Source: Fimicolochytrium jonesii (Eukaryota). From it: a DNA stretch of 64,000 bases. Of the stretch, positions 31,826-64,000 are shown one piece after another; within the stretch, counting starts at the first letter, position 1, and every line of letters starts with the position of its first letter. A program made the translations under genes and the position numbers. The notes under the pieces were generated by a model. The model was not told the DNA's origin, did no database searches, and saw nothing but the letters and a program-made list of their open reading frames with translations. The stretch spans positions 248,001-312,000 of the forward strand of contig NW_026515669.1 of the NCBI RefSeq assembly GCF_025526975.1. The letters are read 5' to 3'.

Positions 31826-34800
31826 TTGGAGAAAGTAATTACTTACCGCGAACTTTTACCAAGCAGAACTCCTCAACCATGCCAACCCTCAAACAACGTG
31901 CTACTAGGAAAACCTTTGGACCTCTGGATTCTACGTAACGGCTCTTCCCATTCTCAATGCACAAAGGTATGGAAAAGCTGGCCTTCTAATCTCAGAATGA
32001 GGTCACACAAAGTGACTTGAGGATTGCAGATGCAGACCAGGACGCAAACTGCCGAGTTGCTGTGTAAGGCTGAGGATGACCGGAAAGACTATGTGTACTG
32101 TGATATCTGGAATACAGCAGCAGATAAGCCCTGCTCCAAAGCTCGAGTGCAACGCCGTCGTGTTGAAGCAAAGGGCATTCACCGCCAATTCACGCTGTTG
32201 AGCACGGATATGCGCTCCTGGCTTGGAAGTTCCAACGGTAGTTTCTGTTTGCAGGCTCCCACGGGTGACCTTCCCAATACCGTCAAGCTGTATGGATGCA
32301 AAACATGCATGAAGGCAGTGAGAGCAGAGAGACAGCACAGGGTAGCCAGTGCCAGGCCTTCTGCCAGTGACAATGAGGACGGCACTCTTCCCCCCAGCGG
32401 CGACAGCACTCCGCCCCCCAGCAGCGACGCTGCCAACCTGCCCCTGCCCACTGTGCGCACTCAGTCTCACGTTGATATTCGCCTCCCAAAGCGACTCATG
32501 CGCCCGCTTCAGTCGAAGTTTCAAGGTGTTGCCCCTCCTGATGCCGAAGCTCGCCGCAGCCGGTCCCGCACAACATCTGGTGTCCTCGAGGGTTCATCAG
32601 CAAAGCCGTGGGACAAACTGGAGATGTTGTTTTTCCTCAGACTCACGGATGAGGTTGAAGATGAAGATGAGGGGGATGACAGGATTGACGAACCAACAAC
32701 GCCGGGGCCTGAGGGGAGGACCTACGCAGCAAAGCTGCAGATGCTCATGGAGAACCCACTTGTGCACAAGCATGGGCAGCTTCTTTTCCCTATTGGAAAC
32801 ATGGAACGGTTTATTGATCATATGAATACCACATGCGTTGGGCTGTTTGACATGAAGATGACCATGGTCGTTGGGGACGTGCCTCTGAAGCGCAGCTCAA
32901 AGTGGAGTGAGAAACACCATGATAGGATCCGCCGCAGAGTGTTCATCGCGATCCTGCTCGATCTCAGCACACGACACCTTCGTGCAAACTACCTTCAGTG
33001 CTGGATGTCCACCCAGCTCCAGCTTTCCAACGTCAGCACCGATCAGCAGACAAAGATCGCCAGGGTTGGCCTCTCCCTTGTCCCGCAACACAACACTGTC
33101 CGAGCGCAGGCTGCCATTGCCGCTCACGAAGGGGATGTGTCCGCGCGACTTGCGCTTCCCAACACATCCGCTGTGGTTCTTGTTGATGATTTCAATTGGC
33201 ATCAGGGGAGAGGCACGCCAAATGAGCGGGGAAAGCGATCAATCACCCGGACAACAGCAAATGTTGGAGTGCGTACTTGGGATGTCTCGGAGATGCCTCG
33301 CCTACCCTCTGGGCTGGGGCCGTTGCGCCCCAATTTTCACACAATCGGGTTTGCAGAGGATCAACATGTTCCTTTGCAGTATTGTCAGCTGTTGGATCGG
33401 ACACTGACATCCTACATTGTCAAACGTGGGAACGGAGGGGAAATACGCCAGATGTATGACACCCGGCGCTTGGATCGGGTGTGCTCCATCAAAAACTTTG
33501 TGGCGTTGGCAAGCGAAGACAACCCGATAAAGTCTGATGAGGATATGGTGAAGCTTTATCAGGAGACAATCATCCTGAAACTTCGGCCATATATCGATGA
33601 ATCGCCAATCGTTGTATCCGGAGACTTCTACGTCTGGATGGGAACCCATAAGTTCCTCACGGGCTCTGCGGAGGGGCAGCAACACTCCGGAAAATTCTTG
33701 GATTGGCCTGGATCGTTTCACATTGCCTTGAACATGCAGGAAGCAGCATACAAGCACTGGTTCCCCCTTCTTAAGATCCTTTACAAAGCGGCATTTCCGG
33801 GTCTCGTTTGTCCACAGGTCAATCTGCGTCCCATTCAACGTGTTCTCCTGCTGTCTCTCGCACTTCAGGCATGGCAGCTTGCTCACACGCCGACGTCGAC
33901 AGCCCCGATGGCGCATGACTACAGTTGGGGCGGGAATGTTATCCGTACCTTCTTCAAGGAGCATCTACCGCTCATGCTCGACGCACCAGTGATTATCACA
34001 TCCCTCAACTACGATCACTTTGAGGAATTCCTTGTTTGCCGCCTCCTGTTCTTCATACAAATGGGGAAGCAGAACTACGTGACAATCATCCTTTGCATTC
34101 TTGGGCGCATGGGCTTCTACCGTGCGCACAACATCCCGCTTTACAAATGGATCCAAAACAACTTCCGGTATCTCAGCGAGGAGGCCATCGAACTCTGGCA
34201 TTCAGTCATCCGTCCCCTTATTCATCCGACGATGCAGCAGAATCAAGCCGAGCAGCGAGTCATGTTCAAAGCTGCCCTCCAAGAAGCCGATGCTCAGGAA
34301 GCGGCAGTACTGAATCTTCGCCAAGGCAAGCTACAGGGAGCAAACGCTGGGACGTTGTTGTTCCAATTCCGCAAAGACCAGGAGTGCAACCTCCAGGCTG
34401 CGGCGGATAAGCTTCTCAGCATTCTTGACCAGATAATCGTCTACAACAGAGACCATGGCGGCCCAGCCTATGAGAGGGAATCAAGGACAGCTGGCAAGAA
34501 TCCGGTGACCACGCGGTTGTATCGTTTCACCACAGAGCCTGACGGCCTGCTGCTAGGTGAGGCAGTCATCCCACTCACCCAGCGACGCCCAAATGCACAA
34601 GGCCACACCGTAGTCAAGGTTGGAAAGCATGTTGACATTACTCGATATGCATTCCCATGCGACAACGCTGGTCATAACACCCCCTGCCAGCCCCTTTCCT
34701 GCGGTTGTTGCTGTCACCGCAGCAGTGTTCGAGCGATGTTCAAGCAGAGCAAGTGCCCAAACTGCTTTTGCTATCACGAAGGAAATCATGCAGGCCGTTG

Positions 34801-34904
34801 TCGCATATCGTAACAGCAAGGTGCAAGAGTGGAGTCAGGCTGGCGTTGCGGGAGAGGAAAGCGATGAGGAGCCCTCTGTCTTTGACGTTGATGAAGCAAG
34901 TTAA
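31826..34904 (+). mobile_element. Decaying intronless DDE-type transposase-like gene (main ORF 32024-34813, 929 aa) with Cys-rich N- and C-terminal regions
   Basis: Candidate catalytic residues 'VVLVDDF' (~33185), 'IVVSGD' (~33623), 'PGSFH' (~33710) and 'LSEEAIELWHS' (~34175), with a long helical insert between the second D and the E. RING-like Cys cluster at the C-terminus. In-frame TGA at 32018 and a 1-nt frameshift at ~34766. No TIR or TSD found. Confidence 0.6.
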
Positions 34905-46614: not shown

Positions 46615-47844
46615 GATACTCTATTCGGATCTGTGGAGCAGAAAGTGGTGTTAGAGAGCGGTAATTCGAGATGACGAGGCTTTAGCATGATGCAAGTAAC
46701 GTACCTGATGAATGCTGCTGTGGAGGTGCCTTTGACTCTGCCCTTGCCTCTGCGAAGAACTGAGGGACCTTTCCAAATCTGGATTTGACACCGCCGGGGT
46801 ACGGCCTTTATATCCTCCGCCGATCACATTCCTGGGGGAAGTAGAAAACCGTGGGGTCCTGCTGCCACTGTGAGGTGTGCTGAGAAGAGCGTGTCAAGGC
46901 GTTCGTCGGCTAGCCATACGAATTGCGCCATCAAGTCCCACGCGTCCTAGTGGCACAACAACCACAACTGAGGGCTCCGACTGGAGAAAAACCCTTCCTT
47001 CCGCTCGGGATCTTATTCTACCGCGAACCCTGAACATGAACATTACAAATGCTCGCAAAGATTCCAAGTTCATCGATATCATCAATAGCAGCATGAGCCT
47101 GCGGCGATGCTTGTGCTGCAGGGACGCGGAAACATTGGCCAAATCTGTCCTGATTGACAGTATTCGACTCGCTGTCGTTTTGAAACGCATGCTGTCACCA
47201 CCACAAAACAACTCCGACTCCTCCGAGCTCCGTGTACGGCAGAAGCAAGTGCATGTGCTTCATGTGGTGCATGACAAAATTGGAGCTTCCCGTGGAGACA
47301 TTGGAGAAAGTTCAGGAGGCCGTAGCAGTCGAAGACAATTTGCGTTGTAACTTCCAGCAATCAGTACATAGGGATAATCAAGGCACGTCTCTGCCATTAC
47401 AGTGTGGGTTGGGCCAGGTGTTGGCGTGGGCTGGTGATCTCCTTCCCGGTTCTGTGCCCATGCAGCCTTGTCAACAAACTGGTGGATCCGCGCCCCGGGC
47501 CGCATAGCGAGAGGGTCATTTGGGAGAGCCAGAGCAAAAATGTCGTCTATAATACATAGGTGAGTGTGCTGTGTCAATGCATGCGGGAACACGGTCCGGT
47601 CGCCTTACCTGGAGACAGCTTCTGCCCCTTTTTGCGCCACTTGAATTCCAGGTAAGGGGCATACATTCCCCACATGTCTCGCTGACCTTGATCCATTTTT
47701 GCTTTGGCCAGCGCGGCAAAGTATGGATGATATGGCGGACACCCGCTCGCATATGGGTATCCCTCATGGAAGGCCGATATCTCGCGAAAACGTGTTCGTT
47801 GACACTCCTTCACGAATGCCTGATTGTAGCGTTCTTTCACAAAC

Positions 47845-48375
47845 TGTTATGAATGGGCGGAGCCGACGGAAATAGAGGCGACTTGTGGTGCAGGTTGTTG
47901 ACAGGTAATGGTATTCAGACCAAAACAAGAACTAGAACAAGACTAGGAAGAACTGGTGTTGATCTGCTGGGGGATCAGGAAGTGGGGAGCTCAGGGGAGG
48001 CGGCTATTTATGCTTTTCTGGGAAGGCTGGGGAAGCGTGGGGAAGCAGAAGGGTACGGAATGGGAGGGAAGCCAAGAGAAGCGCCAAGGGTGGGGGAAGC
48101 ATAGAAACAGAAGACTGGGGATGGGGTGGCTACGCTGAGGCTGTGGGCGGGTACGTGGGGAAGTATGGAGAAGGGTTTGTAAGCGCCGAGTGTTGGGAGG
48201 TGTGGCTACGTGCGGCTGCGTGGAGAAATGAAGGCAGTGGCAGGTGTGGGGTAGCGCGGCTGCGTGCGGCTGCAAGGTTTGGCAGATGTCAGGTTTTGAC
48301 AGGGAATTGACATTGACTGACTGTTGGGATGCTGTCATGAGGTAAGCGCATGGTATGGACGCGTCGTCCATAACA
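47845..48375 (-). repeat. 3' LTR of element 1
   Basis: Direct repeat of 53194-53724; PPT adjacent. Confidence 0.97.
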
Positions 48376-48387
48376 TCACCCCCTCCT

Positions 48388-51300
48388 TTAGCCACGGCGT
48401 CCGGATGTTGTTTTGATGTTGGCAGGCTTTGGTCGGGGTTTGTCGGGGTACTTTTGGTGGAACTGGGCAACAAGCTCTTGACAGCGGGCAAGGTGTTCCA
48501 CTGGCTCCCATGTGTTCTCCGAGCTTGGCCAACCCTGCCACTTGATGAGGTACTGAAGGTGCGTGCGTCGAATACGGGAGTCAAGAATGTCTTCCACAAT
48601 CCATTCCTCCTTTCCTTTGACTTCTTCTGGTGGGGTGGGTTCTGGCTCAGTTCGCTCCGGAATGGTGAAACGTGGTTCAAGAAGGGAGACATGGAAGACG
48701 TTGTGAATTTTGTAGGATGGGGGAAGCTTGAGGCGATATGTGACCGAGTTGATCTTCTCCGTGATTGTGAAGGGGCCAATCTTACGGTGATCAAGTTTCT
48801 GGGAAGGTCGGAGAGTCTTGAGATTCCGCTGTAAGAGCCAGACACTGTCCCCGGGTTTCATGTCTGGGCCAGGTGCCCTCTTAGCATCGGCAAAGCGCTT
48901 CATGCGTCCTTGGGCCTCCTTGAGCTCAGTGGCAAGCTGTTCATGGATTTCCTTGAGATGGTTGGCACGAGCTTCGGCTGCAGGATTAAGGGATTCGGTT
49001 GTGGTGGCGGAAGCCAGACTGAATCGAGGATGGAACCCATAGTTGGCATAGAAGGGGGTTGTCTGGGTGGCGGAGTGGATGGTGTTATTGTAAGAGAACT
49101 CAGCAGAAGACAAGAGTTCCTTCCAGTTATCTTGTTGATAGTTGCAAAAGCAGCGAAGGTATTGCTCAAGAATCTGATTGGTCCGCTCGGTTTGTCCATC
49201 GCTCTGGGGATGGAACGCCGATGAGAGGTTGACCTTGGTTCCCAGGAGAGCGAAGAGGACGTTTCCAGAAGTGGGAGTTGAACTGTGGGCCACGGTCAGA
49301 TACAATATCGTCGGGGAGTCCATGGAGCCGGATGACATGGTGCCAGATCAGATCTGCAGTTGACTCAGCGGTGGCAGTTTTCCTGCACGGTACAAAGTGC
49401 GCCATCTTGGTGAACCGGCAGATGACAACGAGCACAGAATCAACCCCATCACTGGCGGGTAGATCCGTGATGAAGTCCATAGAAATTGACCCCCAGGGGC
49501 GGTCAGGGACCTGCAGGGGTTGGAGGAGTCCGTAGGGCTTGTGTCTGCTGGTCTTGGCGTGAGCACATACGTTGCAGGACCTGATGTAGGACTTGACAAA
49601 ACGCCACTGGCTAGGCCACCAGTAGTTGCGTGAGATGAGCTCCAGGGTCTTTGACATGCCGTAGTGTCCTGCCAAATGCGTGTCATGCATGTCCCGGCAG
49701 ATCTCAGCACGGAGCTTGTTGGTGGGGACGTAGACAAGGTTGTCGTACAGCAGAACCCCATTTTCCTCGGAGAATTGCTTTATCCGTTCTTGGTCTTCTT
49801 GAGATTGCTGGGCAATGGGGGCCCTAAGCTGTCGCCGGATGGTTCGCGCAAACACATCGGATGCCAGGGCAGCTTTGATTTGGTCAAGGAGCGAGGAGTC
49901 CAGTGGGGTCAGATAAGTGGCGGCCAGGCGGAGATGGTCAGGGGTGAGGATCGTGGTTTCCTGGGAGCGGAATGCTTCTTCCCCCTCCCTTAGCTCGTAT
50001 TCAGAGCAACGAGAGAGGGCGTCAGCTTGGTGTTGCTGGGTACCAGGGCGGTATGTGATGACAAAGTCGAAATCAGCAAAGAAGATTGACCAGCGGGATT
50101 GGCGGCAGTTGAGGGTACGGGTAGTCATGAAGTACTGGAGGTTCTTGTGGTCACAGTAAACGATGACCTTGTGGCGGGCGCCAATGAGGTGGTGTCGCCA
50201 TTGAGCAAATGAGTCTTGGATAGCCAGGAGTTCCTTGTCGTAGATCTCATAGTTGATTTCCTCAGGAGTAAATTTGCGGGAGTGAAAGGCCACGGGGTGG
50301 AGTTGATCTGTGTCATCGGGTTGAAGGAGGACGGCGCCAAGGGCAAAGGCGGAGGCATCGGATTCAACAATGAAGGGCATGTCAGGGTCGGGGTGAGTCA
50401 GGATAGGTGCGGAGGTGAAGGCTTTCTTGAGGGTTTCAAAAGCTAGGTGTGCAGCGTGGGTCCATTTGAATGGCAAGTCTTTGCGAGTGAGCGTGGTCAG
50501 GGGTGCAACGATCGCAGAGTACCCTTTGATGAATCGCCGGTAGAAGTTGGCAAAACCAAGGAAGCGCTGGATGCCTTTGACATTTGTCGGGGGTTCCCAT
50601 TCAGTAATGGCAGCCGTCTTCTTTGGGTCCATGGAAATGCCTTGCTGGGAGATGATAAACCCCAGGAACTCAACAGAGTCACGGTTGAATTCGCATTTTT
50701 CCGGTTTCGCGTACAGCCCGTGCTGGCGGAGTCGTGAGAGCACCTCTCGGACGTGGTTGGGGTGGTCTTCTGGGTTTTTTGAGAAGATCAGAATGTCGTC
50801 AAGGTAGACCACAACAAAAACGTCAAGAATGTCACGGAATATGTCGTTCATGAGGTGTTGGAATACTCCAGGGGCATTGGTGAGCCCAAACGGCATGACA
50901 TTATACTCGAATAGGCCGTAGTGACATCGGAACGCTGTCTTCCATTCATCCCCTGGCCGGATCCGAAGAAGGTTGTAGGCTCCCCGGAGGTCAATCTTGG
51001 TGAGCCGGCGTGCCCCTCGAAGACGATCCATGATGCTGTTAATCAAGGGCAAGGGATAGCGATTCTTGATGGTGATATTGTTGAGTCCACGATAGTCGAC
51101 GCACAGACGGAGGGAACCGTCCTTTTTCTTGACAAAGAGGACTGGGGCACCGGCGGGAGACTTGGAGTGCTTGATGAACCCCTTAGCTAGGTTCTCTTCA
51201 AGGTAGTCACAGAGTGCCTGCATTTCAGGCTCGCTGAGACTATAGATCGGGCCGAACGGTGGCTGTTTGCCCTCTTCTAAGTCGATGGGACAGTCGTAGG

Positions 51301-52243
51301 GTCGGTGCTCTGGGAGGGTATCCGCGTTCTTCTTGGCGAAGACGTCCGCAAAATCTTGGTATTCTTCAGGAATGATGGCCTTCGGATCTTTTGGAGGAGT
51401 GGTCGCCAGGGCTTGGGAATCTGACTTGGTCGGATTGGCGTAGGCAATGAATGCCTGGTCATGCCTTGCCGCCACACGGAAAGCTGGGGCGCTGATAAAC
51501 GATACGTGGATCGGTGTGGGTGCTGGGTCCAGTGTGTTGGGTGTCTGGGCTAGGGAGACTGAAATCTCGTCTTGATGGATACGGATCAGAGGTTCAGGGG
51601 TTCTTGAGGGCTTCGGGCTAGGTTCTGTTGGCAGGGCATCCCAGGAGGCGTATTGTCCAAAACCGCAATGGCAGCGGACGCAAAGAGTGCGAGTCTTCCA
51701 GTGTAGCTCCACATCATGGAGCTCAAACCAGGGAAGCCCCAGGATGATTGGCGCATGCGGGGAACATGTCACATGGAATACCACCTCCTCAAAATGGTCG
51801 TTGACCCACATGCCCAAAGGTTGGGTGTGATGGGTAATGGAGCCCGCATGGCTGGGACGTCCGTCAACCAGTTCAAGCGCAATGGGGTCCTCCTTCTTGA
51901 CAAGTGGGATGCGGTGCTTGCGGGCATAACTTTCGTCGATGAAGCACGACATCGCACCGGTGTCAAGTAGTGCTGAAAGCTGAACTGGAGCTCGCTGGGC
52001 CGATATCTGCAGGGTAACAGGGTACTCGAATGGTGAGGATGGGCCCAAAATCCGCATGGGTGAGGGTATCTCAGATCGGAGATTGACATTGTTGGTGGTC
52101 AGGAGAAGGGTGTTGCTGGAGATGCCAGGATCGGAGCAAGGTTTTGTGGCTTCTCCCTTGGCAGTACTTGCGTGGTGAGAAGGCCCAGGACAGGTGTTGC
52201 CCAGCTGCTCGGCCTTTACTGCAGCTGGACTTGGGCAAAATCC
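48388..52243 (-). CDS. pol: Pol (PR-RT-RNase H-integrase-chromodomain) of element 1, -1 frame to gag, with a 1-nt frameshift in integrase at ~49260
   Basis: PR 'LLDTGA'; RT '[11 protein letters not shown]' and 'YLDDILI'; RH 'SDASAFALGAVL'; IN HHCC, 'SMDFITDLP', 'SDRGPQF', 'PQSDGQTER'; chromodomain 'WIVEDILDSR...YLIKWQGWPSSENTWEP'. Confidence 0.95.
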
Positions 52244-53142
52244 TGGATGGGTGCAGGTTCCTTAACCGCGACATTCGCCGTGCGTATCTTGTTTGGGCAG
52301 AGTTTGGCTATGTGGCCAGGTTTACCACAATAGAGGCAAAGTTTGTTTGTGATGCGGTGTTGGCGCTCTAGCGGTGTGAGGGGTCCTCGCGGACGAGCAG
52401 CGTCAATGACCATAGGGTCGTCTGGGCGGTTGTCGGGGCTCATGAGGGTGGGGCTAGTGGTAACTGGCACATATGGCTGTCGGTTCCTGCTTCGCTCTAG
52501 ACGGCGCTCAAACAATCGGTTGTCACATTGGATGGCCTGTTCCATCACGGTGTCGATTGAGGCGGTAGGGGGCATCGTGAGCATTAAGTCCTTGACGTCT
52601 TCTTTGAGGCCGCGACGGAAGGTGGCAATCAATGCCTGGTCATTCCACGACACATCGCATTGCAGCTGTCGGAATTCAGCTACATACTCTGTTGCTGCAC
52701 GGGTTTGTCGAAGGTTCTGGAGCTTGTTTTCGGACGTGCGGATCCTGTCGCTGTCTCCAAAGACTGCTTGCATTTGCTGGATGAAATCATCCAGGTTCGT
52801 AAGGGAATGATGGTCTTGTTCGACAAGGGGCGCCAGCCAGGCCTGGGCGGTGCCAGTGAGGTAGGTGCCAATAGTTCGTATCTTGGTCTGATTGTTGGGG
52901 TAGCGCCTGGGTTGGAGGGCGAACATGAGCCGGATCTGGTTGAGGAACCCACGGAACTTGCTTCGGGTGCCATCAAATTTGTCTGGGAGACTGATTTTGG
53001 GTTCGGGGGCGTGAGTGGCAGGGGCAGTGGTCTGGGTTTGCGCTAGTTCGGCTTGTAGGGTGGTATTCTGCGCTCGAAGTTCGTCAATCGCATTGCACAT
53101 GGCTTGCCAGGCTTCGGCCGTGAGGGGAAGGGCGTCGGACAT
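52216..53142 (-). CDS. gag: Gag of element 1
   Basis: 'PDKFDGTRSKFRGFLNQI', 'LRQTRAATEYVAEFR', 'FRRGLKEDVKD'; CCHC knuckle 'CLYCGKPGHIAKLC'. Confidence 0.95.
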   Translation of the reverse strand: MSDALPLTAEAWQAMCNAIDELRAQNTTLQAELAQTQTTAPATHAPEPKISLPDKFDGTRSKFRGFLNQIRLMFALQPRRYPNNQTKIRTIGTYLTGTAQAWLAPLVEQDHHSLTNLDDFIQQMQAVFGDSDRIRTSENKLQNLRQTRAATEYVAEFRQLQCDVSWNDQALIATFRRGLKEDVKDLMLTMPPTASIDTVMEQAIQCDNRLFERRLERSRNRQPYVPVTTSPTLMSPDNRPDDPMVIDAARPRGPLTPLERQHRITNKLCLYCGKPGHIAKLCPNKIRTANVAVKEPAPIQDFAQVQLQ

Positions 53143-53193
53143 GGTGATTTGGCGTGGAGGCACAGCGGCTGGGGGTTGTTGAGCAGATCAAAC

Positions 53194-53724
53194 TGTTATG
53201 AATGGGCGGAGCCGACGGAAATAGAGGCGACTTGTGGTGCAGGTTGTTGACAGGTAATGGTATTCAGACCAAAACAAGAACTAGAACAAGACTAGGAAGA
53301 ACTGGTGTTCATCTGCTGGGGGATCAGGAAGTGGGGAGCTCAGGGGAGGCGGCTATTTATGCTTTTCTGGGAAGGCTGAGGAAGCGTGGGGAAGCAGAAG
53401 GGTACGGAATGAGAGGGAAGCCAAGAGAAGCGCCAAGGGTGGGGGAAGCATAGAAACAGAAGACTGGGGATGGGGTGGCTACGCTGAGGCTGTGGGCGGG
53501 TACGTGGGGAAGTATGGAGAAGGGTTTGTAAGCGCCGAGTGTTGGGAGGTGTGGCTACGTGCGGCTGCGTGGAGAAATGAAGGCAGTGGCAGGTGTGGGG
53601 TAGCGCGGCTGCGTGCGGCTGCGAGGTTTGGCAGATGTCAGGTTTTGACAGGGAATTGACATTGACTGACTGTTGGGATGCTGTCATGAGGTAAGCGCAT
53701 GGTATGCACGCGTCGTCCATAACA
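53194..53724 (-). repeat. 5' LTR of element 1
   Basis: Direct repeat of 47845-48375. Followed on the minus strand by the primer site GTTTGATCTGCT. Confidence 0.97.
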
Positions 53725-54901
53725 CAAACGCGACAACATCCTCCCTGGAGGTAAAGTACATGCGGCGTTTGGGGGGGCATGAAGCGGTTTCTATAATATC
53801 CCTGATTAGCGGCCGAGGACAGACACACGGAGCATGAGGACAATGGCATGTAACTTACGTCCAAGTGTGCGAAAATGGGTCTCGATTCGCTGACAAACAT
53901 TATCAGCCTTAGCCGACCCGTCACTAAGCATCGCACACAGCATCGGAGATGTCCCTGTTGCTGTTGCACACTCCGTAGTGTGATCAAAGGTAAACAATCC
54001 AAATTCGATACTGGAATCGGCGTAAGTGAGGAGATGTTTCGCGGTGCTCAGTAATGCGTCAAGGGCATGGGCTGGTGTTGGAGTTGGAGTTGGTGACAAC
54101 CGAATCCCTTCGATCGCCTCCTTCTCTCCCGCTCCGAGCTGGTCATATAGATGTTTTCGTCGGGCGTTTACCCACCGGATACAGCTTGTGTCGGGGTGCG
54201 CAATTGCTGTGGCATATTCCTCCGCGGATTCGACGTTGAGATTGAAGCGTGAGATGGTTCCGACTCCATCTTGCTTCAGAAGTGTATTAAAATGACTGAA
54301 TCCGTGTACCGCTGTCGCCCGCTTTGTCCGTTTCCCCTCCCATTCAGATTCGTTTCGTTGCTTAGTCTGTAAAACAAGAGACCAGCGTGAGGATGTGCGT
54401 GGGGATGTGCAAGTGGGAATGTTCTGCAAGTGCGGGAGTCCTGGAGTCCCGGCACGACCTGCCAGCTACCTCTCCTCTCCTCCACCATCACTCTCCTCCC
54501 GTGTGCCACAGTCTCACTTTCATATCAGACAGAGGGATGCCTGCAGCAACAAGGTGGTAGTTCCGCATCCCATCCTTGCGTCTCCCGTTTCCGTCCAACC
54601 ATCCCGTTACCGTGCGACCATCCATCCTGTTTCCCTTCCATCTCCGGTTTGTCGCAAAGCCTCCTCAGTGATCACCCACCATATCTCATCTCCGGTTCGA
54701 ACACGAACACTGCACATGTACTGTACATCTATCGGTATCTGCATAAGCGGAAGAAGGAGAGTTGAGTGCCCTATGTTGCAGGACTCGAGCCATGATTCGT
54801 TTTTTGGATGATGAGTATTTGTGGGAAATGAATGCTGGGGTAGTAGTACCCCCTACGTACCAGCCGTACCAAATGGCAAACCACGGCGCTGAGAGCGTGG
54901 A

Positions 54902-55020
54902 GCTGTAAGGCCGAGCGTGAAGGCTGTAAGGCCGAGCGTGGGCGTAAGGCCGAGTGTGGGCGTAAGGCCGAGTGTGGGGGTGAGGCCGAGTGTGGGCGTA
55001 AGGCCGAGTGTGGGCGTAAG
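54902..55020. repeat. 18-bp minisatellite (GGCGTAAGGCCGAGTGTG), six copies plus a partial
   Basis: Read directly; no unique spacers between units. Confidence 0.95.
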
Positions 55021-55023
55021 AGT

Positions 55024-55140
55024 ACCCTAACCCTAATGTTACCCTAACCCTAATGGCGCCTCAATTTGACCGCGACTCTGTTGAACCTAACCCCAACCCT
55101 AACCCTAACTTTAACCCTCACCCGAACCCTAACCCTAACC
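55024..55140. repeat. Interstitial telomere-like (CCCTAA)n tracts
   Basis: ACCCTAACCCTAA twice at 55024-55053 and a degenerate CCCTAA run at 55085-55140. Confidence 0.9.
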
Positions 55141-55174
55141 GTGCCCTCACGTGCCCATATATTAGTTGCATAAC

Positions 55175-55227
55175 CCTACTCTTTGTCGTCGGACTCTTTG
55201 TTGTCCTACTCTTTGTCGTCAGACTCC
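55175..55227. repeat. 15-bp tandem repeat (CCTACTCTTTGTCGT-like), three copies plus a partial
   Basis: Read directly. Confidence 0.9.
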
Positions 55228-55882
55228 GTCGATAGTTACATTTTCTAGAACTACGTTGAATATGTACATTGAGGTTCCCATCACGTGTATGGAACAAGCG
55301 TGTACTGTACGGCCTCCGACGTTGACGCTTTCACGTTTGTCGACGCTTTCGCGTTCCTGAACTGTATACAATACGGGACACGCGTGTTTGAATAACTCAT
55401 CCGTAACAGATGCATACTTATCTGTATGCATGCATACGCACCCGTTTATGCATGCATATGGTCCATCACGTATTGCAGATCCATAATGCACATCTGTATG
55501 CATGCATGCGCATGCATAAACAGAAATATACTGATGCCCATGCCCCATTCCCCATTCCGTGCATTCCCCGTTCCCCAACACAATCACGAAACAAGGAAAA
55601 TGCTGGTCAAAAGTTCGCGTACGTCGATGACTCAATGACTCGCTTATTGACGTGCCTTCTGCAGCATTTATTGATCCGCAATTAGGCATCCGCAATCTGG
55701 CTCATCTGCTGAAACATCGATATCACAATCACGTCCTTGCCCGCCATTATTTTCTGCCACTGCCGCACCTTCCTACCCTTCCTACCCTTCTTCCGCCGTC
55801 ACCGGGTCTGTCCCTCATCCGGCACATCGGCAGCAGCTACCCACAAACCAACCCTCCCCACAAACCATATTGTGCTGCTGTC

Positions 55883-56903
55883 ATGGATACCATGGAACCA
55901 ATTTCAATGATTCCAATTCCTGATGGTATGTGCCGAAAGACATTACTAGTATTAGAAACTGTCAAATTCCGGGGACAGTAAGCCAATTATTGACGTGCCT
56001 TCTGCAGGATTCGTCAACGCAATTATGCGAGGAGTCCGCTCAGCACTTGCTTCGGTTTTCTGCGTCTCCGGTGCATCAAAGCAAGGCAGCACCGCTGAAT
56101 CGCCTGAATGCACCGCTGAATCGCCGGAATCGCCTGAGCCGCCCGTCATGCTTGGCAACAAGCAATTCAAACGCAAAGCGGAATCGCCTGAACCGCCCGT
56201 CATGCTTGGCAACAAGCAATTCAAACGACCCCATTTGGGTTTGGGCAAAACTAGACCCCATTTGGGTTTGGGCAATTACGATACTGGTAGCCCAGTTCCG
56301 CAACGTACCCGACTCTACTGTCAATCTACTCCTACTTCGACGGCCGGCCAGAAGCTTACCCGTGCCGACTCGAAACAGCTCCTGCAGGAACAACAGGACA
56401 ACTTTAGAGCCATGTTCGACAACTTTCTATCATCGCTTGGTGATACCATCGGTCCGCTCGTGAGGGATATCATTCAGGATGAACTACGTTCGCAATTGGG
56501 CAGGACTCCGGTGGACCTCACCGACATGACAGCCAGCACTTCAGCCACTTCAGCGGCACGACCAAATGCAACCAAACCCGCCAGGAGAGTACCGAAGGGG
56601 CTCAATCAGTTAGTCAAAGAGTTCCTCAACGGCTTTATACCTGGGTATTCAAGTCTCACACCCGCCAACGTGACCAAGTATGGCGCTGGAAACACCAGGG
56701 CCAGGCAGCTGTTGACCGACCTCACCGATCCTCATCGAACGAGGCCACAGTTTGCGGCAGTAGAGGACGCCATCTTGAGCTTCATGGAATATGAGCCCCA
56801 GATACACCAGCATAGTCTCGCCAAAGTGACGGAGGAACTCCTCTCGGTCATCCGCAACCGAATCACCAATATGAAAGCTGGGCGAATCAAGGTGAATTCT
56901 TAG
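55883..56903 (+). CDS. Unknown protein (ORF-X), probable accessory gene upstream of the Fanzor-like gene, 2 coding exons
   Basis: Exon 55883-55925 (MDTMEPISMIPIPD) splices GTATGT...TGCAG in phase into 56008-56903. Internal duplications of 21, 54 and 27 nt all keep the frame; predicted helical C-terminal half. Confidence 0.6.
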
Positions 56904-57657
56904 TCAAGGAGACGATGTTGATGACGAGTAGGCCTCATCTACAAACAGGTATGTAGTAAGACAGACGACTCCGTTCTCAGCTTTTATTCACTGGTGTGGT
57001 TCATCTAGGCAATTGGTGCAGGAATCGTATATATTCCGTTGTGAAAACTTCTATCCCCACTACTACCACAAGGTTGGCGGTCCATGGAATCTACGTCAAG
57101 TGGCTCGGAGGCGTCGATGTCAAACAACTCAACGTCGACAAGATAAGGCATTCCACGTTATTGACCGGATGCCTTTTTAGATGTAAATGAACATGTACAT
57201 AGCGCTTGTGGGTCTTTACAATGTTTTGTTTTTTCATGCATATGGGAACGTTTATGCATCAATATATGCGTAAATATACGTAAGTTCGTTCTAAGTGCGC
57301 AGTTTGCATTATGCATGCATAAGCGCATGCATAAATTGGAACGCGTAGCCGCGGGCTGATTAAACAGAAGCAGGAGAGTTTCAATTATACCCACAACAAT
57401 GCTTTCACTTCCCATGCCACATATGTACACATTCCTTTCAACGTCCGCGTCTCTAGCCTCTCTATCCATATCAACGTACGCCTTCCGCTATGCATATACG
57501 GGGAAGCAATGTGAATTGGAAGGTATGGTTGGCACAGTCTTTGACAGTGTCACTTGCAATGGCACCCACGTGTCGCTTGCAATGGCACCCACTCGTTTGC
57601 TTAGTGCCCACTCTTTCTCATTCGTCTCATTCTGTATACCTTTCGCAGCCAGCAGCC

Positions 57658-58518
57658 ATGGTCAGATATACCATCACGCGACCTGTGGGTCGGTTGAAAA
57701 ATTTCATTCAACGGCCCAATGGGACAGCGGACGAGGACTGGGACAGTACCGTCAGGACCGTAGTAGAGGTGTTTCAAAGCCGTGCCAAGTTTGTGTCTGA
57801 CACGGTCTTCTGTGCCTGGCATTTACTTGGCATCTATCTGAGGAGTGAGGCGGATACCTTCCTGGACCTTCTCAATGACAATCCCTCAGTCATGCCACCA
57901 AATACCGATCATCGTTATCGGAAGGGGCTCACATCAATGTGCGTTGATGCCTGTCGCATCATTGCAATGGATGGCAACCGGCATATGGAGGATCAAAATC
58001 TTTGGAACACCTACATCCAAAAGCTCAAGCCCACCATGATGAGTGGGTATCAATTTCCTGAGGACGCCCTGCTCCCAAACCCACCTGTCCCAGGTGCCAC
58101 CTTCATCTTTTGCAACAAGGTCTTGCGTGTTCGCGGAGCTGAGGTTGGGGATCGCTGGACAGATCATTTATCACAAATTACACTGGTCGCATACACCCTG
58201 GCAGCGAATTTCAAGACTCATATCAGTGAGAATCTAAACAGGTTCATGCTGAGGGTACTCGAAGGGCAAATCAATCTTGTGAATGGTGTAGAATTGCTGT
58301 CAGAAGAAGAAAAGAAGTCTTTCTGTAAATCCGTTGTTTGGACGCATCTGGGCTCACATATGTGTATGAATATGTGCAAGTGTACTGATAACCTCTGAAC
58401 GTCAACAGTCGAACGTCTGACACGATGGTTGGAACCCCACAGATCAAGGGCAATAGTCCAAACACACGCTTCACTCCAACGGGCACCGCGCGTACCTTCC
58501 TGTTTGGCGGGATGCAGC
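57658..58518 (+). CDS. Probable Fanzor1 (TnpB-derived RNA-guided endonuclease) N-terminal WED/REC portion, interrupted by element 2
   Basis: 'YTITRPVGRLKNFI', 'VFQSRAKFVSDTVFCAWHLLGIYLRS' and 'LSQITLVAYTLAANFKTHISENLNRFMLRVL' follow the order and pattern I recall for Fanzor1 N-terminal motifs. Likely short intron ~58362-58408. No RuvC motifs in the window. Confidence 0.6.
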
Positions 58519-58594
58519 TGTTATGGACGACGCGCCCATACCATTAAGCTTACCTACTGACAGCCGCCAATGTCAACCGCCAAATGTCAAACGC

Positions 58595-58657
58595 CAATGT
58601 CAATGTCAATGTCAGTGTCAATGTCAGTGTCAATGTCAGTGTCAATGTCAATGTCGA
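58595..58657. repeat. Hexamer microsatellite (TGTCAR)n in U3 of the element 2 LTR
   Basis: About ten TGTCAA/TGTCAG units. Confidence 0.9.
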
Positions 58658-59138
58658 TGCCACTTCCCCTCTCTCCTCTCATTTCGCCAATCCTCTTGCA
58701 ATATCGCCACTCCTCCTCTCTCCTCTCATTTTGCCAATCCCCCCTTGGCTTCTCCACACCCCCCACTGCTTCCCCATAGCCAGCAGCTGTAGCAATGCTC
58801 TCTACGCTCGCCACGCACGCTCTAGGAGCATAGCGGGCGCCCCCCAGTCCCCTCTTGTTGTTGTTGTTCTCTGATCTGCTGGGTTGCCTATCTATAAATA
58901 GCCGGCCTCTCTTCGTCCCTTCCCTTCCTCCCCAGCAGATCAACACCAGTTCTTCTCATCTCCTGTTCTAGTCCTTGTTTCTTGTTTTGCCAATACAATC
59001 TCTTGTCGCCTATCACTCTCGCCTTGTCTTCTCTACTTCGCTTCCGCCTCAGTCGTCGAGATCATAACAGTTTGATCTGCTCCAACACTGCGAAGTTCAA
59101 AACCTGTCCAGCCCTGCATCCGACAAACCTTTTTCGCC

Positions 59139-60137
59139 ATGTCCCAACCCGAATCCGTACCTTTCACCGCCAAGCAATGGAACGATATGTGCCAAGCCTT
59201 CGCCGCCTTGCAAAGCCAAAACGCCAACTTGCAGGCCAACCTAGCGCAAGCCCAAGCCGACGCACAAGCTGCCCAGAGCATCGCCGCCCAGGTTCAAGCC
59301 GATACGTACACCCGTCCTCAAGTCGCCAATCCTGCTCTGGAGCCAAGAATTAGCTCGCCCGAGAAGTTTGATGGTACCCGCAGCAAATTCCGTGGGTGGT
59401 TGAACAACATCCGGTTGATGTTTGCTCTCCAGCCCGACCGCTACCCCAGCGACATCACCAAGATCCAAACTATTGGCACCTACCTCACCGGCACTGCGCA
59501 AGCCTGGATGGCGCCCCTAGTCAAACGCCAAGATCACAGCCTTCAGGACTTCAATAGTTTTATCAGTCAGATGCAATCGGTCTTCGGAGACAGCGACAGG
59601 GTCCGCACCTCTGAAAACAAGCTCCAGAACCTTCGCCAAACCCGTGCAGCAACCGAGTACGTCGCTGAGTTCCGCCAGCTACAATGCGATGTCGCCTGGA
59701 ACGACCAGGCCCTGATTGCTACCTTCCGCCGTGGCCTCAAAGAAGACGTCAAAGACCTGATGCTCACAATGCCCCCTGCGGCCACCATTGATGTGGTGAT
59801 GGAGCAGGCTATCCAGTGCGATAACCGGCTGTTTGAGCGCCGCCTGGAGCGAAACAGAAGCCGCCAGACCTTCCCGGTTCCCCACACCTCGTTTACTACT
59901 ACCACCACTGTCGACCACAGCGAGCCTATGCAGATTGACGCCGCTCGTCCCCGCGGCCCTCTGAGCCCTCAGGAACGCCAACGCCGCATTTCCAACAACC
60001 TCTGCCTTTACTGCGGTGGCGCGGGGCACATTGCAAAAGTCTGCCCCGTCAAGAACAAGACCACCACCCGTGCCGCCAACGTCGACATCAAAGAACCCTC
60101 CACCGAACAGGGTTTTCCCAAAGTCCAGCCGCAGTAA
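59139..60137 (+). CDS. gag: Gag of element 2
   Basis: Paralogous to element 1 gag; CCHC knuckle 'CLYCGGAGHIAKVC'. Confidence 0.95.
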   Translation: MSQPESVPFTAKQWNDMCQAFAALQSQNANLQANLAQAQADAQAAQSIAAQVQADTYTRPQVANPALEPRISSPEKFDGTRSKFRGWLNNIRLMFALQPDRYPSDITKIQTIGTYLTGTAQAWMAPLVKRQDHSLQDFNSFISQMQSVFGDSDRVRTSENKLQNLRQTRAATEYVAEFRQLQCDVAWNDQALIATFRRGLKEDVKDLMLTMPPAATIDVVMEQAIQCDNRLFERRLERNRSRQTFPVPHTSFTTTTTVDHSEPMQIDAARPRGPLSPQERQRRISNNLCLYCGGAGHIAKVCPVKNKTTTRAANVDIKEPSTEQGFPKVQPQ

Positions 60138-63100
60138 AGCCCCAGCGACTGGACAACACACACCGCCCCGGGCCTCCTAACCTCGCAGCTCCTGCAACGG
60201 GAGAGGCCACCCCCCTGGTTCCCGACTCCGTTATAGCCAACACAACCCTCCTAGCCGCTGCCCATGTCGAAAACTCCGAAATTAACCCCCGCGCCATGCT
60301 TGCGCTGGGTCCCGTCGAACCCTTCAACTACCCCGTTATCATCATGGTATCATCCAGCCGCGCCCCGATACCTACCTCAGCCATGATCGACAACGGTGCC
60401 CTGTCCTGCTTCATCGACACAGACTTTGCCCGCAAACACCGCATCGCCCTAGTCCCGCATCAGCGTCCACTGACGATCGAACTCGTTGACGGTCAACCCA
60501 GCTCTGCTGGGCCAATCACCCATCACACCCAACCAGTAGGCATGTGGGTCGACGACCACTTCGAAGAACTCGTCTTCCATGTCACCAAATCACCCCATGC
60601 TCCAATCCTCCTTGGTCTCCCCTGGCTCCGCCTCCACGACATTAACCTTGACTTCAAGAACCTTTCGGTCGGTTTCCGTTGCGACTGTCAGTACCATGAA
60701 TTCGCGAATTGGGACAACTTTCCAGCACCCCCGAGCCCAGCACCCGCCAGAACCCCCGAGCCCTTGATCCGCATCCCCCAGGATGAAGTCCCCGTCGACG
60801 AAACATGGTCGATTCCAGTACCCAAGGTATCTCGCTCCAGCACCCCAGAACCGGCTCCCTCGCCGCTCTGAGTCTCGTTCATCTCCGCCCCAGCCTTCCG
60901 GGTCGCAGCAAGGCATAACCAGGTCTTTGTCGCCTACGCCAACCCTGCGAAACCCGATCTCCCGGCCTCGCCTAGCCCCAGTAACCCCCCGACACCCGAG
61001 AAAGACATCAAAGACTTCCTGCCCCCCGAGTATCAAGACTTCGCCGACGTTTTCGAAAAGAGAAATGCTGACACTCTCCCCGATCACCGGCCCTACGACT
61101 GTCCAATCGATCTGGAAGAAGGCAAGCAGCCACCTTTCGGCCCGATCTACAGCCTCAGCGAACCAGAAATGAAGGCACTCTGCGAATACCTCGAAGAAAA
61201 CCTCGCCAAAGGATTCATCAAACCCTCAAAGTCCCCTGCCGGTGCGCCAGTCTTATTCGTGAAGAAAAAGGACGGTTCTCTCCGCCTCTGCGTGGATTAT
61301 CGAGGCCTGAACCGCATCACGGTGAAGAATCGCTACCCCCTGCCCCTGATCAACGGTATCATGGATCGTTTGCGCGGCGCCCGCCGGCTCACCAAGATCG
61401 ACCTCCGCGGCGCTTATAACCTCTTACGCATGCGCCCGGGCGATGAATGGAAGACCGCCTTCCGCTGCCGCTACTGCCTATTCGAATACAATGTCATGCC
61501 CTTTGGACTCAGCAATGCTCCTGGCGTCTTCCAGTACCTGATGAACGACATCTTCTGCGACATTCTCGATGTGTTTGTTGTCGTCTACCTCGACGATATC
61601 CTGATATTCTCCAAGAACCCCGAAGATCACCCCAAACATGTCCGCGAAGTCTTGTCCCGCCTCCGACAGCATGGGTTGTACGCCAAACCAGAGAAGTGCG
61701 AATTCAACCGCGAATCCGTTGAGTTCCTAGGCTTCATCATCTCCGAGAAAGGCATCCAGATGGACCCAAGAAGATCGCTGCCATCACGGATTGGGAGCCT
61801 CCCAAGACTGTCAAAGGCGTCCAGCGGTTCCTCGGCTTTGCCAACTTCTATCGCCGATTCATCCAAGGTTATTCCAAGATCGCTACCCCGCTCACAGCCC
61901 TGACCCGGAAAGACATCCCGTACGCCTGGACACCCGCCGCAAACACCGCCTTCGAGAACCTGAAGAAAGCATTCACCACGGCCCCCATCCTTGCTCACCC
62001 TGACCCAGAGAAGCCCTTCGTCGTCGAAACTGACGCCTCCGACTTCGCTCTTGGCGCAGTTCTCCTCCAACCTGACCAGGACAATCAGCTCCACCCCGTG
62101 GCCTTCCACTCTCGCAAATTCACGGCCGAAGAGATCAACTACGAGATCTACGACAAGGAACTTCTGGCCATCCAAGACTCCTTTGCCCAGTGGCGACACC
62201 ATCTCATTGGCGCCCGTCACAAGATCACCGTTTACTCCGACCATAAAAACCTTCAGTACTTCATGACCACCCGCACCCTGAACCGCCGCCAAGCCCGCTG
62301 GTCAATATTCTTCTCGGATTTTGACTTTGTCATTACCTATCGCCCCGGTTCCCAGCAGCACCAAGCCGATGCCCTCTCCCGACGCTCCGAACATGAGCTA
62401 AAAAAGGGGGAAGAAGCGTTCCGCTCCCAGGCAACCACAATTTTGACTCCCGAACGCATTCGACTCGCCGCGGCCTACCTCACACCCATGGATACCACGC
62501 TGCTTGACAAGACCAAGGCCGTTCAGGCCTCTGATCCCCTTGCTAAGACCATTCGCGAAACGCTCAAGATACCCCTCGCCCAACGAACCGAGGAAACCCA
62601 AGATCGTATCAAGCGGTTCTCAGATGAAGATGGGATCCTGCTGCACAATAACCTGGTCTATGTCCCCACCAACGAGCTCCGAGCTGAAGTCTGCCACGAC
62701 ATGCACGATACACCCCTAGCCGGCCACTTTGGGATGTTCAAGACGCTCGAACTCGCCTCCCGCAACTACTGGTGGCCCAGCCAGTGGCGCTTCGTCAAGG
62801 CCTACGTCAAGTCCTGCGATACCTGTAGCCAAGCGAAATCCAGTCGACACAAACCATATGGCCTACTCCAGCCCAACAGTATCCCTACCCGCCCTTGGGG
62901 ATCTTGGTCCCTGGACTTTATCACCGGTCTGCCTCCCGTGGACGGGTATGACTCCATCCTGAACGTCAACTGTCGCCTCACCAAGATGGCCCACTTCATC
63001 GCCTGCAGCGAGTCGGAATCCGCCGAGTCCACCGCCGACCTGGTCTTCCACAACATCATCCGTCTCCACGGCCTCCCCGACGACATCATCTCTGACCGAG

Positions 63101-64000
63101 GACCCCAGTTTAAGTCCCGGTTCTGGCGTCGACTTCTCGAACTCCTTGGGGCAAAAGCCAACCTCTCCTCGGCCTTCCACCCCCAGAGCGATGGCCAGAC
63201 GGAACGCACCAACCAGATCCTGGAGCAGTATCTCCGATGCTTTTGCAACCACCAACAGGACAACTGGAAACAGCTTCTGTTGTCCGCCGAGTTCGCCTAC
63301 AACAACACCCACCAGTCCGCCTCCCAGACCACCCCCTTCTACGCCAACAAGGGTCTCCACCCCCGCTTCAGTTTCGCGGCCTCTGCTACCTCCGAATCCG
63401 TCAACCCCGCCGCTGAAGCCCGCGCTAAACAAATCAGGGAAGTCCATGAACAGCTCGCCCTCGAGCTCAAGGAAGCCCAAGATCAAATGAAGCGCTACGC
63501 CGACGCTAAACAAATTCCTGGACCGGACTTCAAGCCTGGCGACCACGTCTGGCTCCTCCGCAAAAACCTCCAGACAACCCGGCCCTCTCAGAAACTCGAC
63601 CATCGCAAGATTGGGCCATTCCCCATCGTTGAGAAAATCAATCCCGTCGCCTACCGGCTCAAGCTCCCGCCTACGTACAAAATCCACGATGTCTTCCATG
63701 TCTCGCTCCTCGAACCCCGCTTCACCATCCCCGAACGACACGAACCCGAACCCGCGGCCCCAGAGACCGTTGAGGGTCAAGAAGAGTGGGTTGTCGAAGC
63801 CATCCTTGACTCTCGCATCCATTGTCGTCGCCTTCAGTACTTGGTCAAATGGCAGGGCTGGCCTGACTCCGAGAACACCTGGGAGCCCGTGGAACACCTC
63901 ACCCATACCGACGCACTCCTCCAGGACTTCTACAGCGCGTACCCCAACAAGCCTTCCTCTGTCCCCGTAGCACCTCCTCTGCGGCCACACCAAACTCGAC
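60110..64000 (+). pseudogene. pol: Pol of element 2, with a premature TGA (60869-60871) and a frameshift at ~61768
   Basis: PR 'MIDNGA', RT 'YLDDILI', RH, IN and chromodomain collinear with element 1. The two lesions are seen by comparison with element 1. Confidence 0.9.

What the first reader, a model, noticed from the sequence alone, without database searches (positions are those of the whole stretch)
57658..58518. Hidden Fanzor1-like RNA-guided nuclease gene, probably intron-containing, cut by a chromovirus
Seen: an unannotated frame from ATG 57658 that runs into a likely short intron and is then cut by the element 2 LTR at 58519. From recalled family knowledge: its three conserved-looking blocks match the order and spacing of Fanzor1 N-terminal motifs. 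These are the WED strand 'TITRPVGRLKNFI', the first REC helix 'VSDTVFCAWHLLGIYL', and 'ITLVAYTLAANFKTHISENLNRFMLRV', comparable to the 'INYL...M.TNLK.NVQEHF...LLRYI' helix of Spizellomyces SpuFz1. It carries extra insertions relative to SpuFz1, which suggests a divergent lineage. Inference: the RuvC/zinc-finger half and the omegaRNA lie beyond the 3' LTR, outside the window.
Basis: partly seen in the sequence, partly recalled or inferred. Interest (0 to 1): 0.9.

Follow-up and report, generated by a model that had tools for sequence, protein, structure and literature searches.

The report
Broken divergent Fanzor1-like gene in chytrid
A soil-fungus gene that likely encodes the front half of a very divergent RNA-guided DNA-cutting enzyme (Fanzor1) is cut by a retrotransposon, so this copy is probably dead, and its cutting domain and guide RNA, if present, would lie outside the window.

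Summary
The frame from ATG 57658, a 45-nt GT-AG intron candidate (58364-58408) and the chromovirus LTR at 58519 are there; spliced, 272 stop-free codons reach the LTR. It is not unannotated: an NCBI model from the chytrid Fimicolochytrium jonesii covers it as 'uncharacterized', fused to the upstream gene. One paralogue (50%) was the only relative among 1.84 billion representatives. Pfam, PDB, PHROGs, NCBIfam, Atlas and unbiased folds gave nothing. Against a Fanzor1 set chosen by its RuvC half, gene and paralogue match Fanzor1 N-terminal blocks in family order (joint z 5.2, 0 of 2000 shuffles; 0 of 74 real protein pairs as high), the four best of 1853 targets are Fanzor1 at one helix, and the best-matching of 38 splice options is the consensus intron. 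The signal is weak and setting-dependent (hhalign probability 5-25%; z 1.8-2.6 with shorter blocks). Verdict: likely (about 0.8) a divergent Fanzor1 N-terminal half with about 45 extra REC residues, inactivated by the insertion. RuvC and omegaRNA were untestable. Upstream lies a BEN-like gene (lead only) sharing a 110-nt repeat module. The scan had not noted this DNA; it noted similar broken fungal Fanzors elsewhere.

The parts
57658..58363 (+). Exon 1 coding part of the Fanzor1-like gene (235 codons): likely WED strand 1 and REC helices, with about 45 residues of extra REC sequence
   Evidence: paralogue P0004 50% identical
58364..58408 (+). Predicted 45-nt intron (GTATGA ... branch-like CTGAT ... 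CAG), holds the in-frame stop
   Evidence: best of 38 stop-free splice options; not shown by RNA
58409..58518 (+). Predicted exon 2, 36 further codons, cut at a codon boundary by the LTR
   Evidence: matches the next two Fanzor1 blocks, 23 of 2000 shuffles and 15 of 504 window peptides as high
58514..58518 (+). Candidate 5-bp target-site duplication GCAGC (partner copy outside the window)
   Evidence: element 1 has a 5-bp duplication
58519..59069 (+). 5' LTR (551 nt) of Ty3 chromovirus element 2
59070..64000 (+). Internal part of element 2 (gag, pol with chromodomain; one in-frame stop at 60871 and one frame break near 61750); runs off the window just before its 3' LTR
57476..57648 (+). Candidate 5' UTR intron (GTACGC ... 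pyrimidine tract ... CAG) ending 9 nt before the ATG
   Evidence: same junction as in NCBI model P0003
57224..57335 (+). ATGCAT-rich module, copy 2, about 320 nt upstream of the Fanzor-like ATG
55418..55520 (+). ATGCAT-rich module, copy 1 (direct repeat of copy 2), upstream of the neighbouring gene
   Evidence: (score 65 vs null 27 +/- 4, max 42)
55883..56903 (+). Upstream gene (predicted intron 55926-56007): low-complexity N-terminus, helical middle, C-terminal domain with a BEN-like lead
   Evidence: (feature score 0.82, lead only); no Pfam, PDB, PHROGs or NCBIfam match (9, 54, 99, 119, 120)
54905..55226 (.). Repeat cluster left of the upstream gene: 18-mer x6.3, telomere-like TAACCC tract (55023-55140), 15-mer x3.3; possible element end

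Best explanation
This is likely the 5' part of a highly divergent Fanzor1 gene, predicted to carry one short intron, that is interrupted after codon 272 by a Ty3 chromovirus LTR and is therefore probably dead. Shown: the frame, the paralogue, the LTR junction. Inferred from block matches: residues 5-21 are WED strand 1; 35-62, 88-127 and 167-204 are REC helices (R108, kept in the paralogue, falls on the conserved REC-loop arginine column); exon 2 continues the late REC part. Inferred from family knowledge: in an intact copy this half would grip the target-adjacent motif and the guide-target duplex, while a C-terminal RuvC plus zinc finger would cut DNA under an omegaRNA transcribed from the element's 3' end, helping the host transposon persist. 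Here translation would run 13 residues into the LTR and stop, giving a product without nuclease; the rest of the gene would resume about 600 nt past the window end.
For: Fanzor1 reference set built from tool-fetched loci and verified against SpuFz1/PpFz1/GtFz1, selected by the RuvC half only (186 full-length candidates, 40 representatives). (1) A profile of gene plus paralogue ranks four Fanzor1 rows first among 1853 proteins and ORFs, all at the alpha4 helix (E 0.04-0.12; two of the four are the same protein); pairwise 32% over 111 aa to L064, E 2e-5 for one comparison. (2) Seven automatic family blocks: P0002 z 3.8, 0 of 600 shuffles, 1 of 761 real-protein segments as high by z; paralogue z 2.4; joint z 5.2, 0 of 2000 shuffles, best of 74 real homologous pairs 2.0, reversed 0.3. 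Blocks for helix 1, helix 3 and helix 4 have their best site anywhere at the family-ordered place by wide margins. (3) hhalign P 0.0008 to the L064 clade and 0.003 to the diverse set vs 0.19 reversed. (4) Of 38 stop-free splice options the consensus intron scores best against the next three blocks, 10.1 vs 2.3 bits; 6 of 1000 shuffles. (5) Same order of fungi as SpuFz1. (6) A model folded with a Fanzor1 alignment reaches pLDDT 72 and its top match of 48161 chains is GtFz1, Z 6.3, 156 residues, rmsd 4.2: compatible, but circular.
Against: No hit in Pfam, PDB sequences, PHROGs, NCBIfam or Atlas features. No Fanzor among phmmer hits in 1.84 billion representatives. The main viral Fanzor1 clade gives no significant match and an alpha4 register one turn off. 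hhalign probabilities are 25%, 9% and 4.5%. On raw scores 17 of 761 real segments equal P0002 and 199 of 761 equal the paralogue. With blocks trimmed automatically to 12 or 16 columns the spliced product gives z 1.8 (34 of 406 nulls as high, most blocks misplaced) and 2.6 (8 of 406). The exon-2 blocks were trimmed by hand after seeing the peptide; untrimmed blocks did not score. The L064 clade was picked after seeing its match. Foldseek on the Fanzor-guided model ranks SpuFz1 only 36th and 47th, E about 8-9. The paralogue's model stops at 211 aa. No RuvC-like hit anywhere in the window.
Confidence: 0.62

Rival explanations
1. An unrelated, lineage-specific helical protein family (two paralogues in one species) whose amphipathic helices resemble Fanzor1 REC helices by chance.
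For: All standard searches are blank; probabilities 5-25%; signal shrinks with other settings; many analyses were tried.
Against: Order and register of several blocks agree in both paralogues, joint z 5.2 against a real-pair maximum of 2.0; exon 2 continues the pattern in the frame fixed by the consensus intron; true divergent Fanzor1 proteins (L108, L111, L093) score as low or lower when left out of the profile.
Confidence: 0.18
2. Fanzor1-derived, but the nuclease half is not waiting behind the retrotransposon: the family was already cut down to the WED/REC half (relic or nuclease-less DNA/RNA binder), or the 3' part was lost.
For: The only paralogue is annotated as 211 aa, ending just after alpha4; partial Fanzor copies are common in S. 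punctatus (42 loci, 19 full-length; PMC10432273 passage).
Against: This copy is stop-free up to the LTR and keeps post-alpha4 blocks; the paralogue's end may be a missed intron (its DNA could not be fetched).
Confidence: 0.15
3. One fused gene as in the NCBI model: the upstream BEN-like protein joined in frame to the Fanzor-like half.
For: Model P0003; a good donor at the end of the upstream frame and a strong acceptor 9 nt before the ATG.
Against: The linking exons run through the AT-rich repeat module and give low-plausibility peptide; the paralogue starts at its own Met at the same place; each gene has its own copy of the upstream module; the model ends with a 29-nt intron, shorter than any other candidate seen here.
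Confidence: 0.05

Closest known systems
SpuFz1 of Spizellomyces punctatus (PDB 8gkh, 9ceu-9cez; PMC10432273, PMC11423790)
   Same: Same fungal order; N-terminal block order; alpha4 helix aligns with 5 of 19 identities and mostly conservative changes (by eye).
   Different: No detectable similarity by phmmer or profile; about 45 extra residues between helix 1 and helix 4; predicted intron; no 30-nt inverted repeat end could be assigned; broken copy.
Metagenomic Fanzor1 clade of L064 / P0126-P0130 (685-715 aa, intact D-E-D triad; profile hits SpuFz1 at E 7e-16)
   Same: Best sequence match: 32% over 111 aa around alpha4, including a Trp and H-L-S-Q before the helix.
   Different: That clade has an N-terminal Cys/His knuckle and is intron-free; similarity outside alpha4 is weak; host unknown.
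GtFz1 of Guillardia theta (PDB 9cer)
   Same: Top structural match of the alignment-guided model, residues 35-239 on 20-222; conserved REC-loop arginine (PMC11423790 passage) has a candidate in R108.
   Different: Match is circular and Z 6.3 is below the level that stands out for helical proteins.
Intron-bearing and CMC/EnSpm-, Crypton- or hAT-associated Fanzors (PMC10530073; PMC3627910)
   Same: Introns in Fanzor genes and capture by many DNA transposons are reported.
   Different: No transposase is seen here; the neighbour is a BEN-like gene (lead) sharing a repeat module, a pairing that one three-term search did not find.

Membership tests
Fanzor1 | C-terminal motif D-X(125,275)-[TS]-[TS]-X-X-C4 zinc finger-X(5,50)-RD with RuvC triad (PMC3627910 section 6) | not testable with these tools
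Fanzor1 | N-terminal WED strand plus REC helices in family order | tested here: met
   Joint z 5.2, 0 of 2000 shuffles, 0 of 74 real pairs; weak and setting-dependent. The WED strand block alone is not specific (2.0 vs 1.9 bits).
Fanzor1 | Significant profile or sequence match to known members | tested here: inconclusive
   hhalign P 0.0008-0.003 but probability 5-25%; none by phmmer/hmmsearch on PDB.
Fanzor1 | REC fold | tested here: inconclusive
   Unbiased model pLDDT 42, no Fanzor among listed rows; guided model matches GtFz1 at Z 6.3 but is circular.
Fanzor1 | Conserved REC-loop arginine that binds the TAM duplex | tested here: inconclusive
   R108, kept in the paralogue, is placed on that column with a low block score (0.8 and 3.6 bits); not the block's best site.
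Fanzor1 | Structured omegaRNA at the 3' end of the element | not testable with these tools
   3' end outside the window; Rfam blank for 47000-64000; no RNA run listed.
Fanzor1 | Carried by a mobile element with definable ends and several copies | tested here: inconclusive
   One paralogue; repeat cluster and twin modules on the left; no right end, no transposase in the frames scanned.
Fanzor1 | RNA-guided, TAM-dependent DNA cleavage | not testable with these tools
   Needs an intact copy and a bench assay.
Ty3 chromovirus, Tf1/sushi type (element 2) | TG...CA LTR, gag-PR-RT-RH-INT-chromodomain order | tested here: met
Ty3 chromovirus, Tf1/sushi type (element 2) | Primer-binding site complementary to the start of its own transcript (self-priming; PMC6317226 passages) | tested here: met
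   10 nt after the LTR are complementary to 58934-58943, about 40 nt after a TATA-like box; transcript start inferred.
BEN domain (upstream gene) | Profile or structure match | tested here: inconclusive
   Atlas feature score 0.82 (under 0.9, lead only); Pfam blank.

The most novel reading that the evidence does not exclude
An undescribed two-gene mobile element of chytrids: a BEN-like DNA-binding gene and a deep-branching, intron-bearing Fanzor1 with an enlarged REC lobe, each driven by its own copy of a palindrome-rich module and bounded on the left by tandem and telomere-like repeats, with intact RNA-guided copies elsewhere in the genome that RuvC-seeded surveys missed because of splicing and divergence.
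Probability: 0.17. Interest if true: 0.55.

Novelty: new member of a known kind. Interest (0 to 1): 0.27.

Why it matters
If right, it marks a Fanzor1 lineage so divergent that its N-terminal half has no detectable relative among 1.84 billion representatives except one paralogue, and that was not found in the supplements of two main surveys. The REC/WED half sets TAM choice, so a lineage with about 45 extra REC residues could widen the range of compact eukaryotic editors. But this copy is broken, chytrid and intron-bearing Fanzors are already known, and the decisive half is unseen; its value is as a pointer to look for intact copies.

Tried and rejected
Whole genome: not held. Sequencing runs: none was listed, no RNA holder listed. 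Pfam, PHROGs, NCBIfam, PDB sequence searches of P0002, P0003, P0004 and alignment A1: nothing significant. P0005 (E 1e-4) is a repeat-rich spurious frame and was dropped. Related loci of A1 in viral and metagenome contigs: 55 and 199 pattern matches, none confirmed. Atlas on P0004: no usable feature hit, TM at most 0.36. Unbiased AlphaFold model (pLDDT 42): Foldseek and VIA lists hold no Fanzor, uninformative. Main viral Fanzor1 clade (10 and 130 sequences): no significant match. Full-family HMM on spliced vs unspliced product: no gain from exon 2 (0.5 vs 0.7 bits). Untrimmed post-alpha4 blocks: no frame scored. Head-to-head telomere junction at 55022: score 31 vs null 33 +/- 7, rejected. GCR1_C/Crypton reading of the upstream gene (recalled resemblance): no Pfam support, dropped. 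Rfam 47000-64000: blank. Supplements of PMC10432273 (9 files; one scanned PDF not readable) and PMC10530073 (2 files): no 'Fimicolochytrium'; the latter also lacks 'Spizellomyces', so its blank says little. Other Fanzor surveys were not read. No complex prediction was sent.

Full report
Observation. The frame from ATG 57658 is open for 246 codons. Near its end lies GTATGA...CAG (58364-58408, 45 nt); without it the frame has 272 codons and ends at the first base of an LTR at 58519. Read on, it would add 13 LTR-coded residues and stop. The LTR is 551 nt and belongs to a Ty3 element with a chromodomain integrase that runs off the window just before its 3' LTR. A sister element (47845-53724, minus strand, LTRs 526 of 531 identical) has a 5-bp duplication, which makes GCAGC a fair candidate here.

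Source and annotation. A search for longer relatives returned one protein among 1128 candidates, P0003, an NCBI model of Fimicolochytrium jonesii (Spizellomycetales) that maps piece by piece onto 55540-58251 of this window. So the frame is annotated, but as an uncharacterized fusion with the upstream gene. phmmer over 1.84 billion representatives gave two hits: a paralogue from the same species (P0004, 211 aa, 50%, E 2e-49) and a spurious repeat. Identity to the paralogue is 53-65% in the Fanzor-matched blocks up to helix 3, 50% in helix 4, and 23%, 52% and 36% in the three linkers.

Standard searches. Pfam, PHROGs, NCBIfam, PDB sequences and Atlas features gave nothing. The two-sequence fold had pLDDT 42 and its fold searches were uninformative.

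Building a reference set. Short RuvC motif patterns (recalled) fetched 364 loci; two protein searches added 125 proteins. Representatives match SpuFz1, PpFz1 and GtFz1 (E 1e-40 to 2e-22 for L006; 7e-16 for the L064 clade). Of 1853 distinct proteins and ORFs, 400 hit a RuvC-half profile, 186 were full length, and 40 representatives at 60% identity were aligned. Selection used the C-terminal half only.

Tests for. The two-sequence profile ranked Fanzor1 rows first to fourth of 1853, all at helix alpha4 (two rows are one protein). P0002 vs L064 gave 32% over 111 aa, E 2e-5 for that single comparison, chosen after the fact. Seven blocks defined automatically from the family were chained in order: P0002 z 3.8 (1 of 761 real segments as high), P0004 z 2.4 (13 of 761 reached 2.6), and on the 201 shared columns z 5.2, 0 of 2000 shuffles, reversed 0.3, best of 74 real homologous pairs 2.0. 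Helix 1, helix 3 and helix 4 blocks had their best sites at the ordered places by 10, 5 and 11 bits; the first-strand block was a near tie, and swapping it with helix 1 kept z at 4.4. hhalign gave P 0.0008 and 0.003 against 0.19 for the reversed query. As a separate test, 38 stop-free splice options were scored against the next three family blocks; the consensus intron won, 10.1 against 2.3 bits, 6 of 1000 shuffles; exon 2 alone 23 of 2000 shuffles and 15 of 504 window peptides. By eye against SpuFz1, residues 183-201 pair with 141-159 at 5 identities of 19, and the helix 1 to helix 4 distance is 128 against 83 residues.

Tests against. The large viral clade alone gave no significant match and a shifted register. 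Raw chain scores were reached by 17 of 761 (P0002) and 199 of 761 (P0004) real segments. hhalign probabilities were 25%, 9% and 4.5%. With blocks cut automatically to 12 or 16 columns the spliced product scored z 1.8 (34 of 406) and 2.6 (8 of 406); 3 of 14 true divergent Fanzor1 left out of the profile scored 2.1 or lower in both settings, so the test is also insensitive. The exon-2 blocks were trimmed by hand; untrimmed they failed, and the full HMM gained nothing from exon 2. A fold guided by 47 Fanzor1 rows reached pLDDT 72 and matched GtFz1 best of 48161 chains (Z 6.3, 156 residues, rmsd 4.2), but this is circular, and Foldseek ranked SpuFz1 low. No RuvC-like frame was found among 1366 window ORFs. 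Overall I put Fanzor1 ancestry at about 0.8.

Context. The upstream gene (55883-56903) has no family match; Atlas features point to BEN-type domains at 0.82, a lead only. A module of about 110 nt rich in ATGCAT is directly repeated upstream of both genes (55418-55520, 57224-57335; score 65, null 27 +/- 4; no other tile of 850 above 35 outside these regions); 14 of the window's 34 ATGCAT lie in 55410-57490. Part of that likeness may be low complexity. Left of it are an 18-mer array, a telomere-like TAACCC tract and a 15-mer array. This looks like one end of a mobile element, but no right end or transposase is visible. Earlier scan notes on BEN genes in CACTA-type elements gave this lead and were not checked.

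Mechanism. Family knowledge (PMC11423790 passages; PMC10432273 passages): WED and REC hold the TAM duplex and guide, RuvC cuts, and the omegaRNA comes from the element's 3' end. This copy would give a truncated protein without RuvC and is probably inert. Which came first, decay or insertion, cannot be dated without the 3' LTR; the stop-free frame suggests that the insertion itself broke the gene.

Literature. Seen: PMC3627910 abstract and sections 6 and 12; passages of PMC11423790, PMC10432273, PMC10530073, PMC13533422, PMC6317226; supplement searches of PMC10432273 and PMC10530073. Intron-bearing Fanzors and links to CMC/EnSpm, hAT and Crypton elements are in print. Searches for Fimicolochytrium listed no Fanzor paper on this species, and a search for BEN domain plus transposon plus Fanzor found none. 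bioRxiv supplements and one scanned file could not be read and other surveys were not checked, so absence from print is not established.

Verdict. Likely a new, very divergent member of a known kind, in a broken copy; interest 0.27, higher if intact copies or the two-gene element turn up.

Noticed in passing
window 58934-58943 and 59070-59082: Element 2's primer-binding site is complementary to 10 nt inside its own LTR about 40 nt after a TATA-like box: Tf1/sushi-type self-priming in a chytrid chromovirus; element 1 has the same site.
   Followed up: partly
window 47845-53724 (minus strand): Second chromovirus, full length, LTRs 526 of 531 identical, 5-bp duplication CAAAC, pol split over two frames near 49200-49350; 73% identical to element 2 inside. 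The two flank the BEN-like/Fanzor-like island back to back.
   Followed up: partly
window 55644-55664 and 55987-56007: Two predicted introns of the upstream gene (46 and 82 nt) share the same 21-nt 3' end, as if one was copied from the other.
   Followed up: no
window 54905-55226: 18-mer array, interstitial telomere-like TAACCC tract and 15-mer array side by side; not a head-to-head fusion by alignment.
   Followed up: partly
window 32021-34813 (+) and 8545-10173 (-): Long frames of 930 and 542 codons without a Pfam match; the second likely continues the RGS-domain gene.
   Followed up: no
L064:1018-3105 (-), P0126-P0130, L093:499-2706 (+): Metagenomic Fanzor1 proteins with an N-terminal Cys/His knuckle ahead of the WED strand and an intact-looking triad; only 5 relatives found at E 1e-10.
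   Followed up: partly
L037, L042, L043, L048 (one giant-virus contig): Four long (about 960 aa) Fanzor1 copies on one 188-kb contig with large REC and RuvC insertions.
   Followed up: no
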